From positions 48,608,001 through 48,672,000 of the forward strand of contig OX597818.1 of the NCBI GenBank assembly GCA_951406725.2: DNA of 64,000 nt, in the 5' to 3' direction. This document shows, one piece after another, positions 40,401-60,400 of the stretch (the stretch's first letter is position 1; each line of letters starts with the position of its first letter). Position numbers: made by a program. The stretch is from Octopus vulgaris (taxonomy: Eukaryota).

Positions 40401-43400
40401 TGACTGTGCTGGTATGGTCATGTGATGCGTATGGATATGGACAGTTGTGTAAGGTTCCGATCTCTACCAGTAGAAGGAAGCTGTGGAAAAGGGAGACTCA
40501 GTAGTGAAGCATGATTTTCAAATGTTGGGCCTCATGGAGGTAATGACTAGTGGCCAAAACCTTTGGTGATATGCTGTGCTTAAGACCTATCAAGCCAAGT
40601 TAAATCATAGCTGAGGTTATTATTGGTGGTTGCTGTTGCTGTTGAGTGAAGCGGTCTTTGTCCCTAGTGGTAGAAGTCCGAAATGTGGTCCTTTTCTATT
40701 CGTAAGACCCGCAGAAGAGATAGCAGGTCAACCCCCGACACCGAGAGCATCGACGGATGGATGAATGAATGCACATCCAGGCTCAGCGGTTGCCTAGGAA
40801 GTCGGGGATAAGAAACAGGAAGAAAGAGGGAGAGAAAGTTGGGTCGAAAAAGTACAACAGGGGTCCCCCCTCCCCTGCCAGAGCCTCGTGGAGCTTTAGG
40901 TGTTTTCACTCAATAAGCAAACACAAATCGAAACCGCAATCCTCCGACCGCGAGTCCGCTGCCCTAACCACTGGGCCATTGCGCCTACATTTGTTATTGG
41001 TGACTCGTAAATGGTACCTACCAAGCATTGGCTTTCACAGAGGCAATGTGGATGATGCCGGTGGTACATAAAAAGCACCTTCTGAGTACTGGACCTCATG
41101 GAGGCAATGACAAATGATGTGGTTGAGAAGACCCATTAAGTCAAGTGAAATCATAGTCATAGCAGATAGTGGTGTCATGCAAACTGACACCTGTTGCAGT
41201 GGCACATAAAAGCACCCATTACACTGAGTGGTTAGCATTAGTAAGGGCTCCAGCCATAGAAACCAACTAACTAGAATCTGGTGCAGCTCCTCAGCCCTAG
41301 TCAAACCATCCAACCCATGCCAGCATGGAAAACGGACATTAATGATGAGACTGAAGCAATATGATTAAATCCCCTTTATTGTTAAGATTGAAACTCCTAT
41401 AGTTGTTCTATTGAAGAGAATGTCCAGTATGTTGTTAAACCCCAATCTTCATTATGATTGAAAGCATTCCAGATGTGACCAGCTCATTATTTTCCTCCCC
41501 AAGATATATATCCAGTACCTTGTTTTAAAAGAGACTTAAAGGGAGATTTGGTTGTTATCCCCAATATATGAAGAAACCATATTGAACCTTTCTGATGGCT
41601 TCTTTTTGCCTGGAGTACATAACGAAATTGGTTTAGCAATGAACAAAGTCTGCATATTTGAATGACACTAATTCAGTGCAGTCATGTACCTACTAGACTT
41701 TAACCTCTCAACACCTATCATAGAGCCACCTTCCTTTCAACTATAACTCCATTCAGTGAAGGGTCTCACGCATGCCAGCATGGAAAGCAGACGGAAAATG
41801 ATGATTAGTCACATTTCAGCTGGTGTGCCTATAACCAAGACAACAACATGAATTTCAATACACTGGTGTATTAATTCCTTATCTCAGAAAATCCACACAA
41901 GATTATCTTTATTGAAACATCACTTAAATGTGAAAATCCTTTGTTGCTTTTACAATATATCTATTATTCTATGACACACTCTACAGTCAAGATGAGAATT
42001 TTCAAAATGTTTCCCTCATTTGAACTTGATCTGTGTAGTTGAGAGGCTTGCGGCTAATTGTAAAGAAAGAAAAAAAATTGGTTTAATACTGATACCATGG
42101 ACTCAAGTTGATAGCTATCTCTTTTGAGCCTGTTTTAGTCAATGATTTTCAGACAGGTACTTTAAAACCAAGGTATATTTATTTCCACGTTTTCCTAAAC
42201 ACAAGCACTATCATCAATGTGACCTCTCTGATACCCAAAGATATCTTTGATCTGAATTCTAAAGCTTTCAGCAAAAAGAAAGTTGATAATGAAAACCATT
42301 GGAAAGTTATCTTCAAACGCATACAATATTGAAATAAAGATACTCCCTTATTCTATACCTGTAGTCATTTGGAAAAGATCAAATGTTTACCTAGAATGCA
42401 AATTTGAACAGGCCCCTGAACACCTTAGGAAGAATACAAAGATTGTTATCTCCTGAAACAAATGTAATACTAAGAGAATTCACTAAAAATTTTATCAACA
42501 AGAAAACTTTTCTAATTAGGCGAGCTGGCAGAAACGTTAGCCTGCCGGGTGAAAAGTTTAGCGGTATTTCGTCTGCCGCTCCGTTCCGAGTTCAAATTTG
42601 CCTTTCATCCTTTTGGGGTCGATAAATTAAGTACCAGTTACACACTGGGGTCGATATAATCGACTTAATCCGTTTGTCTGTTCCCTCTATGTTTAGCCCC
42701 TTGTGGGCAATAAAGAAATAAGAAAACTTTTCTAATTAGTAATTGTCTTATATATATATATATGAATTCACTCCATATTCTTAGTTTCTTCAACCCTACA
42801 ACACAAATTGATGGAAGCTTTCTACATTTAGAAATTCCAATATAGCAATAATATTGCATTTCATTCAATTATTATACTTATACCCTTAAAATATTCCAAG
42901 AGCTATTAAGTGTTGAAAAAACAGAGCAATGTTGCTTTTCTCTTCCTTTATCCATCTTCCAATCCTTTTAACTGCCAGTCCATTTTGTAAATGTAGGTAT
43001 TGCATCAAAGACTTTAATCATTACTATCTTAAATATGCCAACACAAAACGAGACATTTAAATCTCAAACTAACAACTATAGCGTAAGACTAAATCTGTAC
43101 AAATGTTATGAACAATTATTAATGATTGAGTGAGGTTCGCCTTGAAGGTAGATTGAATTACGCTGAAAATATTTCGTGAATAAAATTATGGTATGCAGGT
43201 ACTACAAACGAACGGGTTAGTACCCGAGTGCAAGAGTGAATGACTAACATTTGCAAAATGAAATTACATGGTTTATCAATACAAGGGAGGTAAAAACTAT
43301 AGTTAAGTACAAGGGAAATAACTATGTTTGACACTGAACATTATCTTGCATCCTGATAAAAATTATTGTAAACGGACAGTTAGTGATTATAGCATTTGCT

Positions 43401-57411: not shown

Positions 57412-60400
57412 TATATGTATATATATATACATATATATATAATTACATTAACGAGCCAGTGGTTGTCGCGCCCGTTTCATTTCTTCCTGTTGTAAACGTT
57501 GTTGAATAAGTATCTGAGCCTTTGTGATGCTATTGGGCGTACCGGTAATAGTAACCACTCTGTTTCGAGTACCAGGGACGTACACACCCTTCTTTGATAT
57601 CTGAATGTTTGTTCCGGTCATCTGTTGAAGTTCGACAATTCCCTTGCCACCTGGTCCGAGGATGGCTCCAACAATAGTTTCTGGAACCTCTATTTCATTC
57701 TTCGTTGTCGGTCCGGACTTGTCTTCTGTAGGGCTGTACACAGACGAATTATGTCCAAAAGACATCTGATTCTTCATTTGGTCACCAGAAGTACTTGGAC
57801 CTGCTGCAAAAACTGGATTATTCATTGAGTAGTTGACAGCAGTGCCAAATGAATCACTTAACATTGGGCTACCACCAAACCTGTCGCTGTTCATATTTGC
57901 TGAGGAATTATTGAAGGGACTGGTACTAGCGCATGTTGATGCAAAATTCTCCATCGCTGACGGGCAGCTGCCGACGGGACCAAAAATACAGTTATTGTTA
58001 CTGCTATTGACAAACGGGTTGCTAACACTGGTAGTGGGCGTGTTACAACCAGACATCATATTTGAACCTTGTGGGCCTTGCAGGTTGAGTCCACCACTTC
58101 CAGTGCCTAAGTTGTTAAGGGCTCCTAGGTTTAAACCAATGTTGGTAAGAATACCATAATTAGCCAATGTACTCATCGCTGCTCCTATCTCTTCAATTGC
58201 CATATCGGTGAATCCATAGTTACGAAGTGTTACTTTTAAGTTTTCTAGTGCTGAGCTGTTGATTGCTCCTCCGGCAGCACCACCTCCTCCTGAACCTCCA
58301 CCACCAAGGTTAGCATTGTTTACACTCATGTTAGATACATTAGAGTTAGAATTATTTCCGAAATTGTTAAATCCGAAATTGAAAGTTCCCAAGTTGTTAT
58401 TCGCTGCTAAACCCATCTGATCTTGGTTTCTATAGTTCATGTGAGTGAAGGGTAAAGCATTTGAATTGTTTCCTGACATGGGACCCAAGAATTCAGCATA
58501 ACTTATATTAGGGCAGCAGCCACTCTGAGGATCTTCAGCTATAACTCGTAAGATCATATCGACTGCCGTTCTATTACCATCCACATCGCCTGCAATCGTA
58601 ACACATCGTTCTGGTATATATGTACCTTTCTGGCTCTGTGATATTTGCACTGATACTCCGCTTTCTGCCTTAATCTGTTTAATAAAATTGCCTCCTTTGC
58701 CGATTATCATACCGGCAGTACTGTTAGGGACGAGGATTTTGATTTGTTGATTTCGTTCGTAAGGTCCACGATAGTCGTCACATCTAGTATTCAAATCTGG
58801 TTTTTCACGAATCTTTTCCATTATAAAGTTATGTACTTTGCGGACGGCTTCGAATGGCCCAGTAATCAAGCACACCCTTTCAGTCGTGCCTGGATAGAAA
58901 TTGTTGGACTTGGACATTTTCAGTTTAGCACCAGCTTCATTTTGAACTCGAGCTATTGTTTCGCCACCTTTGCCAATGATAGCTCCTGCTATTGCGTTTG
59001 GCACCAATATCTTGAGACTAATAGACCCGCCAGAACTACTGTCTCCAGATTTATAGTCACAGGTATATATTTCATCGGACCCCATGCTGCCACCGCCTCC
59101 GCTCTGACTAGCGTTCATCTTGCTTTATGTAAGGAGAAAACTTTCTGTAAGGAAGGACGTCAGTGTTTCTTTTTTCTGCTGTCGCCCTCAAGATTAGTTC
59201 GGCGACGCTTAGTTAAATTTTCCTCTTTTTCTCTTGTGTTGCATGCAAACAGCTTTCTTGTAGAGCAAGACAAACCTCAAATTTCTTGAGTGTAAGAGTT
59301 ATTCATCCTTAAATTTCACGAAAGGTGGCGCTGTAGCTTCCTGCATTCCTGCAGCGATTTTCTGCTTAAAAGAAGTAAAAAATAAAATGTAGCGAAATTT
59401 AAAAATCCATTAGAGATGTTCTTAAAAACATTAAATAGTACAATTAATTATTTTTATAATATCTGTATGTATTTGACAAGCAAATATCGATATATACTGA
59501 ATTGTTAATTCAGCAAACGGAAGTGGTCAGGTCACACTACATCAAATCAGCTTAGGGAAAGAAGATGGCATTAATTCTCTCTCTTTCCTGTTTTTTTGTC
59601 CTTCCCCTTTGAGATCTTGTATGCTACATCTGTCAACTATTGATAACTTCCATACCATCTTCACTTATAATTCCATTCACATCTGGAATACTTTACCACC
59701 CAGTTCTTTAATGGGGCTTTATTTTATCGTCTCTGATAAAGCAGTACCATTGACTTCGGTGTGGTTTCAACTCTGTTAAGGGCCCTTAACTAAAAACTGC
59801 AGACATTTTTTGGTACCTTGGTCTACCAATTCTGTTAACCCTTTCGTTACAGTATTTATTATGAGATGATCTGTGGTTCTTTCAATTTATTTTAAATATA
59901 ACAAAGAATTTAGTAAAATAACATAGTTATCATTAAGTTAGTGTTAGGAACATAAATTGTGACCAAGGTTTGGTGGAAGATTTTAATTCAAAACTTATGA
60001 AAATAAGACATTTGAACTCAGAGCCAGAGCCGGGTTGGTAACAAAAGGGTGGTTTTCCTGATATTTAAACATTAATAATAGCAACATTTTAAATTACAAT
60101 ATTGTCCAGAGATGCTCTGTGGTTCTTTCAATTACTTTAAATATAACAAATAATTTAGCAAAATAACTTAGTTATCATTAAGATAGTGTTAGGAACATAA
60201 ATTGTGACTAAGGTCTGGTGAAAGATTTTAATTCAAAACTTATGAAAATAAGATATTTATACTAAAGAGCCAGAGCCGGTTTCGGCCGGGTTGGTCACAA
60301 AAGGGTGGTTTTCTTGATATTTAAAAATTAATAATAGCAACATTTTTTAAAATACAATATTGTTCAGTAAAACCGAGTTGATATTTGAATAACATTAAAA

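What the first reader, a model, noticed from the sequence alone, without database searches (positions are those of the whole stretch)
41890..57447. 12-15 kb transposon desert downstream of Nova: candidate giant 3'UTR
Seen: between ~42.75 and ~55.2 kb I can recognise only one 219-bp MITE, versus an element roughly every 0.5-1 kb in 15.6-42 kb. The tract has no credible ORFs and has many A-runs on + (U-rich on the Nova sense strand). A minus-strand AATAAA (41913-41908) followed by a GU-rich element sits at the boundary with the TE-dense block. Established: neuronal RNA-binding protein genes often have very long, constrained 3'UTRs. Inference: a single-exon Nova mRNA of up to ~17 kb under selection against insertions, and thus a large post-transcriptional regulatory platform.
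Basis: partly seen in the sequence, partly recalled or inferred. Interest (0 to 1): 0.7.

Follow-up and report, generated by a model that had tools for sequence, protein, structure and literature searches.

The report
Repeat-poor flank behind a Nova gene copy
A 14.7-kb stretch almost free of mobile-element copies lies just behind an intronless extra copy of the neuronal RNA-binding gene Nova in a cephalopod genome; its sequence hints that it is transcribed with that gene, but whether it is one giant untranslated tail is not shown.

Summary
In 42726-57447 only 2 dispersed-repeat intervals (2.8% of bases) are found, against 45 intervals (51.6%) in 15601-42725. Random placement never gave so empty a 14.7-kb window (0 of 2000). 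The MITE, the A-runs, the lack of ORFs and the AATAAA at 41913 are all present.

No RNA or cross-species data could be reached. Three sequence signals fit transcription on the Nova strand:
- T>A skew of 0.099 (z 10) on the Nova sense strand. It equals that of the one clearly transcribed non-coding region in the window, while two likely untranscribed unique regions show none.
- No AAUAAA/AUUAAA in the first 2280 nt after the stop.
- AAUAAA depleted on the sense strand only for about 10 kb (5 seen, 13.1 expected).

Against a single 15.5-kb UTR ending at 41.9 kb:
- That signal is 1 of 36 canonical hexamers.
- Five AAUAAA cluster 10.9-11.9 kb from the stop.
- An old LINE remnant lies at 43.5 kb.

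"Nova" here is a divergent, intronless paralog shared with a cuttlefish, probably an old retrogene.

The parts
57448..59118 (-). Coding sequence of an intronless Nova paralog (556 aa plus the stop at 57448-57450)
   Evidence: An uninterrupted ORF. Three KH_1 domains, E 1.7e-45. Best solved relatives are Nova-1 KH1-KH2 (2ann, 6.3e-48) and Nova-2 KH3 (1ec6, 1.2e-22); the next family, PCBP2, scores 1.2e-15. It is 56% identical to O. sinensis Nova-1 isoform X4 and 80% to an unnamed 564-aa protein.
42726..57447 (-). The repeat-poor, AT-rich tract with strand skew
   Evidence: GC 0.283 and AT skew +0.098 on the + strand. 2 repeat intervals covering 2.8%. 0 of 2000 random placements were as empty. 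The skew persists at 0.077-0.088 after homopolymer runs are removed.
55168..57447 (-). Proximal 2280 nt with no AAUAAA or AUUAAA on the Nova strand; rich in TA/CA microsatellites
   Evidence: The first canonical hexamer is ATTAAA at 55167. 0 observed against 4.4 expected, with 2 of 200 shuffles as low. 20 weaker variant hexamers are present. Microsatellites were seen.
55225..55405 (.). SINE-family fragment, one of the two recognisable repeats in the tract
   Evidence: It matches at least 10 other copies in the window at 77-84% identity. The sensitive search extends it to 55213-55464.
54201..54217 (-). First two AAUAAA on the Nova strand, 3231 and 3242 nt after the stop; a candidate proximal poly(A) region
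   Evidence: The downstream 40 nt hold 19 U.
52535..52617 (.). Palindrome that folds into a long hairpin
   Evidence: Self-match. Folding energy -34.8 kcal/mol, z -5.8, with 0 of 200 shuffles as stable.
46657..46883 (.). MITE with TTAA at both ends and 20-nt terminal inverted repeats
45503..46515 (-). Cluster of five AAUAAA on the Nova strand, 10.9-11.9 kb after the stop; a candidate distal end of the transcription unit (inference)
   Evidence: Positions 46515, 46265, 45856, 45607 and 45508. The AAUAAA depletion ends here: 5 against 14.0 expected upstream of the cluster, and 6 against 4.0 from it onwards.
43499..43621 (+). Probable ancient LINE ORF2-tail remnant, antisense to Nova
   Evidence: TBLASTN with the window's RT ORF: 13 of 28 residues identical with E 9e-5. 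Extended to 41 aa at 39% identity with one stop, E 6e-5.
42518..42725 (.). SINE copy at the border between the tract and the TE-dense block
41908..41913 (-).
   Evidence: It is present, as one of 36 canonical hexamers on this strand. It lies in a 910-bp repeat-free gap, 41608-42517.
15654..42725 (.). TE-dense block between the two convergent genes
   Evidence: The span 15601-42725 holds 45 repeat intervals with 51.6% of bases covered. It contains an RT ORF at 29986-31167. Its non-repeat part has AT skew 0.008.
11215..11527 (+). Terminal coding exon of a convergent CaMK-group kinase gene, used here as an internal comparator
   Evidence: It matches Pkinase profile positions 225-263 of 263, E 3.4e-5, below the curated cut-off. 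A polypyrimidine tract and AG precede it, and the stop is at 11525-11527. The best solved relatives are the ends of the CASK, DAPK and CHK2 kinase domains, about 1e-6. Its 3' flank is repeat-free only as far as 14164.
59125..63282 (.). CpG-rich region between the Nova paralog (-) and Arv1 (+); likely holds both promoters (inference)
   Evidence: CpG o/e is 0.66-0.88 here against 0.13-0.53 in the other non-coding segments of the window. AT skew is 0.001. The Arv1 domain ORF at 63283-63999 scores E 1.2e-30.

Best explanation
The tract is the 3' flank of an intronless Nova-paralog gene on the minus strand, and most of it is probably transcribed on that strand.

Proposed working:
- Polymerase leaves the stop codon at 57448 and meets no strong poly(A) hexamer for 2.3 kb.
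- Some transcripts may end at the first AAUAAA pair, about 3.2 kb out. Others may run on through roughly 10 kb in which AAUAAA is under-represented, to an AAUAAA cluster 10.9-11.9 kb out (46.5-45.5 kb).
- This would give long, U-rich alternative 3'UTRs.
- The scarcity of mobile-element copies would then come from selection against insertions that bring poly(A) or splice signals into, or otherwise disrupt, a long regulatory RNA.
- The last 3-4 kb (42.7-45.5 kb, and the AATAAA at 41.9 kb) more likely lie outside the unit.

What is shown: the repeat paucity, the composition, the strand skew, the hexamer distribution and the identity of the gene.

What is inferred: transcription itself, the positions of the ends, selection, and any neural or microRNA role.
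For: 1. Repeat paucity is far beyond random placement.
2. The AT skew is uniform: 26 of 28 500-bp bins agree, z is 10 on non-repeat DNA, and it does not depend on A-runs (0.077 after removing runs of 5 or more).
3. Internal calibration: the only clearly transcribed non-coding DNA in the window, upstream of the kinase's last exon, has the mirror-image skew (-0.097). Both are T>A and C>G on the gene's sense strand. Two likely untranscribed unique regions have 0.008 and 0.001.
4. The skew domain begins at the stop codon (57436).
5. No canonical hexamer occurs in the first 2280 nt.
6. AAUAAA is depleted on the sense strand only in the first 10 kb: 5 against 13.1, P 0.0099, with 33 against 29.1 on the antisense strand. 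Of 48 combinations of 5-kb window and strand, the two lowest probabilities are tract sense-strand windows.
7. The tract holds no ORF with a family match and no Rfam family that would point to another gene.
8. 3'UTRs above 10 kb, some above 18 kb, are validated in mammalian brain (PMC3638137, abstract). The octopus median of 350-380 nt comes from FLAM-seq, which the authors say is biased toward short molecules (PMC9699675, passages).
Against: - No RNA, 3'-end or conservation evidence was available.
- The hexamer depletion is modest, and its boundary was chosen after looking. Over the whole tract it is 11 against 18.6 expected, with 12 of 200 shuffles as low.
- 36 canonical hexamers, plus 20 variant hexamers in the first 2.3 kb, could end transcripts early.
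- The kinase gene's own 3' flank, which must hold a 3'UTR, shows almost no skew (-0.029, z -1.5). So skew is not a general mark of 3'UTRs here.
- The kinase intron's skew is concentrated in a CT-rich stretch at 5-8 kb.
- The proximal 2 kb is full of TA/CA microsatellites and holds a SINE fragment, which does not look tightly constrained.
- The distal skew boundary (39623) lies in a TE composite, not at the tract's edge.
- No strand-specific enrichment of Pumilio, ARE, CPE, Musashi or YCAY motifs was found.
- The reported median octopus 3'UTR is 350-380 nt.
Confidence: 0.4

Rival explanations
1. Short 3'UTR plus a transposon-free regulatory or chromatin domain. In this reading the mRNA ends within about 1-3.3 kb, using a variant hexamer or the first AAUAAA pair. 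The remaining 11 kb or so is untranscribed DNA kept free of insertions because it carries enhancers or insulators for the Nova paralog or its neighbours, or because its germline chromatin is a poor insertion target.
For: - Transposon-free regions near regulatory genes are a known class in vertebrates (PMC2241635, search listing and start of abstract).
- The neighbouring kinase gene also has a repeat-free 3' flank of 2.6 kb, 11528-14164.
- Many usable poly(A) hexamers exist.
- The reported median octopus 3'UTR is short.
Against: - An untranscribed regulatory block does not by itself explain a uniform strand skew of 0.099 that starts at the stop codon and matches the polarity of a transcribed control.
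- It also does not explain a sense-strand-only AAUAAA deficit.
- The Nova-Arv1 intergenic region, surely regulatory, tolerates repeats: 3 intervals covering 12% of 59125-64000.
Confidence: 0.28
2. No function. In this reading the tract is ordinary old unique DNA that recent SINE, LINE and MITE bursts happened to miss. Insertions pile into existing TE clusters. The skew and the A-runs are relics of ancient retroelements, decayed beyond recognition and lying mostly in the + orientation.
For: - One such remnant is detectable: a LINE ORF2 tail at 43499-43621 (+).
- The LINE sense strand is A-rich in this window. The + oriented RT fragment at 39723-40501 has positive skew, and the - oriented RT ORF region has negative skew.
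- Repeat-free gaps of 3.7-4.4 kb occur elsewhere in the window.
- CpG depletion in the tract (o/e 0.23-0.53) is like that of the TE block (0.44).
- My repeat library sees only families that recur in the window.
Against: - 0 of 2000 random placements gave so empty a window, though that model ignores clustering.
- No target-site duplications were found at any of the 10 A-runs tested.
- No other TE protein trace appeared with 49 ORF queries from the TE block, and none in 61 ORFs scanned against Pfam.
- A 13:2 orientation bias of A-runs would itself need a strand-specific cause.
Confidence: 0.2
3. The tract is transcribed on the minus strand but belongs to another unit. Candidates are an intron or exon of a larger host gene into which the retrogene inserted, a 3'UTR intron, or a separate long non-coding RNA downstream of Nova.
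For: - The skew and the AAUAAA deficit argue for minus-strand transcription, not specifically for an unspliced 3'UTR.
- Its skew equals that of an intron-side region.
- Mammalian 'downstream lincRNAs' and 3'UTR extensions have been mistaken for each other (PMC3638137, abstract).
Against: - There is no skew upstream of the gene (0.001 in 59125-63282), so a host gene spanning the locus is unlikely.
- No coding exon was recognised in the tract.
- GUAAGU donor-like sites are not enriched: 2 against 3.8 expected.
Confidence: 0.12

Closest known systems
Neural 3'UTR extensions by distal alternative polyadenylation. Mouse and human: Miura et al. 2013, PMC3638137, abstract and passages read. Drosophila: Hilgers 2011 and Smibert 2012, seen only as citations in that text.
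   Same: The candidate unit is a very long terminal exon behind a neuronal RNA-binding protein gene. It has several possible poly(A) sites and no other gene inside. A length of 10-15 kb is within the validated range (many above 10 kb, some above 18 kb).
   Different: Nothing here shows expression, tissue bias, cleavage sites or conserved sense-strand motifs. The gene is an intronless lineage-specific paralog. The published octopus data give a median 3'UTR of 350-380 nt (PMC9699675, passages).
Transposon-free regions of vertebrate genomes (PMC2241635, search listing and start of abstract only)
   Same: A stretch of many kilobases with almost no transposon insertions, next to a regulatory gene, in a genome otherwise dense with repeats.
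   Different: Vertebrate regions are defined genome-wide, and many are kept across lineages. Here there is one locus, one species and a window-internal repeat library. The stretch holds one MITE, one SINE piece and one old LINE remnant, and it is strongly strand-skewed.
Canonical Nova/Pasilla genes (NOVA1 and NOVA2, Drosophila pasilla, mollusc Nova-1 and Pasilla-like)
   Same: Three KH domains in the same order. All three GxxG loops are kept. The best solved relatives are Nova-1 KH1-2 and Nova-2 KH3.
   Different: It is only 51-58% identical (BLASTP) to the named Nova-1 proteins of four octopods (Octopus sinensis, O. bimaculoides, O. vulgaris, Argonauta hians). It sits on a long stem of 0.71 changes per column. 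It lacks the N-terminal 30-70 residues of the canonical proteins. Its coding sequence is in one piece, whereas the canonical gene has several named isoforms that differ by internal segments.
Retrogenes (processed, intronless paralogs)
   Same: An uninterrupted coding sequence of a gene whose parent is spliced, lying at a different locus beside unrelated genes (Arv1, a kinase).
   Different: No poly(A) relic or target-site duplication is visible. The parent's exon structure could not be inspected with these tools, so retroposition is an inference.

Membership tests
Extended or giant 3'UTR | Continuous sense-strand transcription from the stop codon to the distal end | not testable with these tools
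   No RNA data. There are indirect hints only: skew and a sense-strand AAUAAA deficit.
Extended or giant 3'UTR | A used cleavage and polyadenylation site at the distal end | tested here: inconclusive
Hexamers are present at many places: 36 canonical on the sense strand. A cluster at 46515-45503 is a better candidate. Usage cannot be tested.
Extended or giant 3'UTR | No other gene or promoter inside | tested here: met
   0 of 61 ORFs reach a Pfam cut-off. No Rfam family reaches its gathering score in the tract. The longest ORF has no homologs. Unannotated non-coding RNAs cannot be excluded.
Extended or giant 3'UTR | Conserved sense-strand regulatory motifs (microRNA seeds, RNA-binding protein sites) | tested here: inconclusive
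   Conservation is not testable. Single-sequence counts show no strand-specific enrichment, apart from runs of six or more U on both strands and Pumilio-like words on both strands caused by microsatellites.
Transposon-free region | Several kilobases or more without any transposon-derived sequence | tested here: inconclusive
   The longest clean gap is 8341 bp. The 14.7-kb tract holds a MITE, a SINE piece and a LINE remnant. The repeat library is limited to the window.
Transposon-free region | The repeat-free state is kept across species | not testable with these tools
   No cephalopod genome collection is on hand.
Nova/Pasilla family | Three type-I KH domains (two N-terminal, one C-terminal) whose closest relatives are Nova proteins | tested here: met
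   KH_1 three times, E 1.7e-45. 2ann scores 6.3e-48 and 1ec6 1.2e-22, against PCBP2 at 1.2e-15. Every named hit in the list that is not 'hypothetical' or 'unnamed protein product' is called Nova, Pasilla or K Homology domain-containing, apart from some UniRef '30S ribosomal protein S3' labels. It groups with O. sinensis Nova-1 inside molluscs with support 86/90.
Nova/Pasilla family | Orthology to the canonical single-copy Nova of the species | tested here: not met
   It is 51-58% identical to the named octopod Nova-1 proteins but 80-87% identical to a second type of protein found in a cuttlefish. It forms a separate 100/100 clade. It is a paralog.
Retrogene | Intronless coding sequence of a spliced parent gene | tested here: met
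   One ORF covers the Met to the stop and aligns end to end. The parent has named isoforms X2-X4 that differ by internal blocks. The parent's exon map itself was not inspected.
Retrogene | Poly(A) relic and flanking target-site duplication | tested here: not met
   Only two T-runs of at least 10 nt on the + strand, which would be A-runs on the gene strand. They lie 8.3 and 12.7 kb from the stop. No target-site duplications were found at the 10 + strand A-runs tested; the gene's own flanks were not searched. This is expected if the copy is as old as the octopus-cuttlefish split.

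The most novel reading that the evidence does not exclude
Coleoid cephalopods carry a lineage-specific, intronless Nova paralog that has lost the canonical N-terminal segment. In the window's species its mRNA bears a U-rich 3'UTR of more than 10 kb that is kept clear of transposons. That would be among the longest 3'UTRs in any invertebrate. It would also be a large landing pad for the expanded cephalopod microRNA set and for RNA editing, tying a new splicing-factor copy to cephalopod-specific post-transcriptional control in neurons.
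Probability: 0.15. Interest if true: 0.65.

Novelty: new member of a known kind. Interest (0 to 1): 0.45.

Why it matters
If the tract is a 3'UTR of more than 10 kb, it would show that extreme neural-type 3'UTR lengthening, known from flies and mammals, also arose in cephalopods. The published median there is only 350-380 nt, from a method biased toward short molecules. It would also give a concrete locus for testing microRNA and editing control of an RNA-binding protein.

Separately, a conserved intronless second Nova gene in coleoids is a candidate lineage-specific addition to the neuronal splicing machinery. My three literature searches listed no paper on either point.

If the tract is not transcribed, it is an invertebrate example of a transposon-free region. 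That is useful but ordinary.

Tried and rejected
- Motif counts on both strands against 150 dinucleotide shuffles (Pumilio, ARE, CPE, YCAY/UCAU, Musashi, 5' splice-site words). No strand-specific enrichment on the Nova sense strand. Pumilio-like words are raised on both strands because of TA/CA microsatellites. YCAY clusters were 8 against 4.8 expected.
- Rfam. At gathering score the whole window gives only a 5S rRNA match at 22156-22273. An E-value scan of the tract gave 41 matches, all far below gathering score and all mir-297/466-like hits on TA/CA repeats.
- tRNA scan of the window: 0 genes.
- The longest tract ORF (126 aa, Nova strand) was searched in the large protein set as a proxy for conservation or transcript assembly. 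Nothing was found, not even itself, so the search was uninformative.
- Target-site duplications at 10 A-runs: none.
- CpG o/e as a proxy for gene-body methylation. The tract (0.23-0.53) is not separable from the TE block (0.44).
- TBLASTN with 49 ORFs of at least 90 aa from 14-42 kb against the tract. It gave only the LINE remnant and the known SINE.
- Cluster look-up of the Nova proteins: the database was switched off, so the species and the names of the window protein's cluster mates stay unknown.
Its Supplementary Data 1 and data file S1 of PMC9699675 may hold this gene's measured 3' ends.
- Two papers were not held: Touchon 2004 and Hilgers 2011. What I say of transcription-coupled skew in other animals is recalled.
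- In the two octopus and squid papers opened for 'Nova', every occurrence was NovaSeq or Supernova, not the gene.
- No cephalopod genome or transcript collection is reachable. Conservation was therefore not tested.
- The kinase was searched as a single exon only. I built no joined gene model.

Full report
**Layout of the window.** Two genes converge on a repeat-rich core.

- On the minus strand, one uninterrupted ORF (57448-59124 stop to stop, Met at 59118) encodes a 556-aa protein with three KH domains.
- On the plus strand, 11215-11527 is a terminal coding exon. It is preceded by a polypyrimidine tract and AG, it encodes the last 40 or so residues of a CaMK-group kinase domain plus a tail, and it stops at 11525-11527. 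I searched that exon alone and joined no gene model.
- Upstream of the KH gene lies a CpG-rich 4-kb region (CpG o/e 0.66-0.88).
- Beyond that, an Arv1-family ORF runs off the window on the plus strand (63283-63999, E 1.2e-30).
- Between the two stop codons lie three parts: a 2.6-kb repeat-free kinase flank, a repeat-dense block (about 14.2/15.6 to 42.7 kb), and the tract in question (42726-57447).

I used self-BLASTN of the window as a repeat detector.

- The tract has 2 dispersed-repeat intervals covering 408 of 14722 bp (2.8%). The span 15601-42725 has 45 intervals covering 14000 of 27125 bp (51.6%).
- The largest repeat-free gap in the window, 8341 bp, lies in the tract. Four others of 3.7-4.4 kb exist, two of them outside the tract.
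- When the 63 intervals were placed at random 2000 times, a gap of at least 8341 bp arose in 0.1% of trials. A 14.7-kb window with 2 or fewer intervals never arose. That model ignores the tendency of insertions to cluster.
- A more sensitive BLASTN added only TA/CA low-complexity matches.
- The single MITE is confirmed: 46657-46883, TTAA at both ends, 20-nt inverted termini, with a second copy at 15654-15881.
- The other element is a SINE-family piece at 55225-55405.
- None of the 61 tract ORFs scanned (of 62 that are at least 55 aa) reaches a Pfam cut-off.
- Of the 15 homopolymer runs of at least 10 nt, 13 are A on the plus strand.
- GC is 0.283 against 0.412 in the repeat block.
- The AATAAA at 41913 is there, but it is one of 36 canonical hexamers on that strand.
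- One caveat applies. TBLASTN with the window's own reverse-transcriptase ORF finds a short, decayed LINE ORF2-tail remnant at 43499-43621, plus strand. Old repeats invisible at the DNA level therefore exist, at least in the distal part.

**The gene is not the canonical Nova.**

- Its best solved relatives are Nova-1 KH1-KH2 (6.3e-48) and Nova-2 KH3 (1.2e-22), so the family is right.
- It is only 56% identical to Octopus sinensis Nova-1 isoform X4. It is 51% identical to the O. bimaculoides protein and 58% to the O. vulgaris one. Against other molluscs it is 51-56%.
- It is 80% identical over its full length to an unnamed 564-aa protein. It is 87% identical, over the 38% that is covered, to a protein named NOVA from the cuttlefish Acanthosepion pharaonis.
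- In the alignment it lacks the N-terminal 30-70 residues of the canonical proteins. It shares its own start (MNxxQSG...) with the cuttlefish-type protein and keeps all three GxxG loops.
- I built a tree from 21 of the 120 listed hits: named molluscs, four outgroups and the unnamed protein. I left out partial proteins and extra isoforms. The window protein and the unnamed one form a 100/100 clade on a long stem (0.71). That clade is sister to O. sinensis Nova-1 with moderate support (86/90), inside molluscs.
- The canonical gene has several named isoforms that differ by internal blocks, whereas this copy is one exon.
- The simplest reading is an old retrogene that arose in the cephalopod lineage and is kept in both a cuttlefish and the window's species. 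That is an inference: no poly(A) relic is visible near the gene, no target-site duplication was found at the A-runs tested, and I could not inspect the parent's exons.
- The species itself was not established.

**Is the tract transcribed with this gene?** No RNA or comparative data were reachable, so I looked for strand-specific footprints.

*Skew.*
- On non-repeat DNA the tract has A>T on the plus strand by 0.099 (z 10), which is T>A on the gene's sense strand.
- 26 of 28 500-bp bins between 43001 and 57000 agree in sign.
- Removing homopolymer runs leaves a skew of 0.077-0.088.
- Likelihood segmentation of the whole window puts one change point at 57436, which is the stop codon, and the other at 39623.
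- The window offers its own calibration. Non-repeat DNA upstream of the kinase's last exon is intron of a plus-strand gene and has skew -0.097 (z -6.9). That is the same size and the same polarity relative to the gene. In both regions C also exceeds G on the sense strand.
- The non-repeat part of the repeat block has 0.008, and the Nova-Arv1 intergenic region has 0.001.
- T excess on the sense strand of transcribed non-coding DNA is a known pattern in other animals. I recall this; Touchon et al. 2004 was not held.

*Poly(A) hexamers.*
- The sense strand has no AAUAAA or AUUAAA for 2280 nt after the stop. 4.4 were expected, and 2 of 200 shuffles were as low.
- AAUAAA is then scarce for about 10 kb: 5 observed against 13.1 expected, Poisson 0.0099. 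The antisense strand has 33 against 29.1.
- Among 48 combinations of 5-kb window and strand across the window, the two lowest probabilities are sense-strand windows of the tract (0.056 and 0.091).
- The deficit ends where five AAUAAA cluster within 1 kb (46515-45503, 10.9-11.9 kb from the stop). From there on the count is 6 against 4.0 expected.

**What weakens this.**

- The hexamer statistics are modest, and the 10-kb boundary was chosen after seeing the data. Over the whole tract the deficit is 11 against 18.6 expected, with 12 of 200 shuffles as low.
- Twenty weaker variant hexamers lie in the first 2.3 kb, so a short UTR is not excluded.
- The kinase gene's own 3' flank, which must contain a 3'UTR, has almost no skew (-0.029, z -1.5). 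The kinase intron's skew is concentrated in a CT-rich stretch at 5-8 kb.
- LINE sense strands are A-rich here. Decayed plus-oriented retroelements could therefore contribute to the skew, and one such remnant is present.
- The proximal 2 kb is rich in microsatellites and holds a SINE piece.
- The distal skew boundary falls in a transposon composite (39625-41607, bounded by an 89-bp inverted repeat pair), not at the edge of the desert.
- Motif counts gave no strand-specific signal.
- CpG depletion does not separate the tract from the repeat block.

**Literature.**

- Octopus vulgaris 3'UTRs have a median of about 350-380 nt by FLAM-seq (PMC9699675, passages). [quoted passage not shown] That median therefore does not exclude rare giant UTRs.
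- 3'UTRs above 10 kb, some above 18 kb, are validated in mammalian brain. Downstream 'lincRNAs' there turned out to be UTR extensions (PMC3638137, abstract).
- Transposon-free regions near regulatory genes are described in vertebrates (PMC2241635, listing only).
- Three searches (octopus + UTR + Nova; cephalopod / retrogene / Nova; octopus / transposon-free / conserved non-coding / gene desert) listed no paper on this gene's UTR, on a second cephalopod Nova, or on transposon-free regions in octopus. I saw only the listings, plus passages of two papers in which 'Nova' was NovaSeq or Supernova.

**Verdict.**

- The desert is real and non-random.
- The most likely single explanation (confidence 0.4) is that most of the tract is transcribed on the gene's strand as long alternative 3'UTR. 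The first strong signals come at about 3.2 kb, and the likely outer limit is near 11-12 kb. Repeat paucity would then be due to selection against disruptive insertions.
- The rivals are a short UTR followed by an untranscribed transposon-free regulatory domain (0.28), neutral heterogeneity with decayed old repeats (0.2), and transcription as part of another unit (0.12).
- This would be a new member of a known kind. The intronless Nova paralog is the more solid new fact.

Noticed in passing
window 57448-59118 (-): The 'Nova' gene is a divergent intronless paralog. It is 51-58% identical to the named octopod Nova-1 proteins and 80-87% identical to a cuttlefish-type protein. It lacks the canonical N-terminal 30-70 residues and sits on a long branch sister to O. 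sinensis Nova-1. It is probably an old cephalopod retrogene.
   Followed up: yes
window 11215-11527 (+): Terminal coding exon of a CaMK-group kinase (CASK/DAPK/CHK2-like end of the kinase domain plus a Ser-rich tail), convergent with the Nova paralog. Its 3' flank is repeat-free only to 14164, and the first AATAAA lies 829 nt after the stop.
   Followed up: partly
window 59125-63999: A CpG-rich region (o/e 0.66-0.88, against 0.13-0.53 in the other non-coding segments) lies between the Nova paralog (-) and an Arv1-family ORF (+, 63283 onward, running off the window). It looks like a shared or back-to-back promoter region.
   Followed up: partly
window 22156-22273 (+): Full-length 5S rRNA match (79 bits, gathering score 38), 19 nt upstream of a SINE-body match (22292-22368). 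It could be a 5S pseudogene or a 5S-headed SINE.
   Followed up: no
window 46657-46883 and 15654-15881: Two copies of a 219-bp MITE flanked by TTAA, with 20-nt inverted termini that begin CCCTTTAGT. The TTAA target suggests a piggyBac-type family (the family name is recalled, not tested).
   Followed up: partly
window 52535-52617: An 83-bp palindrome that folds into a long AU-rich hairpin (-34.8 kcal/mol, z -5.8). It could be a small inverted-repeat element, an editing substrate or a microRNA-like precursor.
   Followed up: partly
window 43499-43621 (+): Decayed LINE ORF2-tail remnant (39-46% identical to the window's RT ORF, with one stop), invisible at the DNA level. A17 and A18 runs lie about 1.1-1.3 kb downstream on the same strand.
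   Followed up: partly
window 39625-41607: A pair of 89-bp inverted repeats (86.5% identical) brackets a 2-kb composite that holds a LINE RT fragment (39723-40501) and other repeat pieces. It may be a DNA element with nested insertions.
   Followed up: no
window 29986-31167 (-): LINE reverse-transcriptase ORF (RVT_1, E 2.4e-26) with a weak PHD-like match. A long poly-Ile run is encoded by the ATG/ATA trinucleotide arrays that TRF reports on the + strand at 31001-31104.
   Followed up: no
window 28632-29689; 4631-5317; 25776-26145: Tandem arrays with long units: 329 bp x 3.2 copies (97% matches), 304 bp x 2.3 copies (91%), and 184 bp x 2 copies (93%).
   Followed up: no
window 5001-8000: Repeat-free, C/T-rich stretch on the + strand (GC skew -0.385, AT skew -0.134) with (TC)n and (CA)n arrays and CpG o/e of 0.13, inside the presumed kinase intron.
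   Followed up: no
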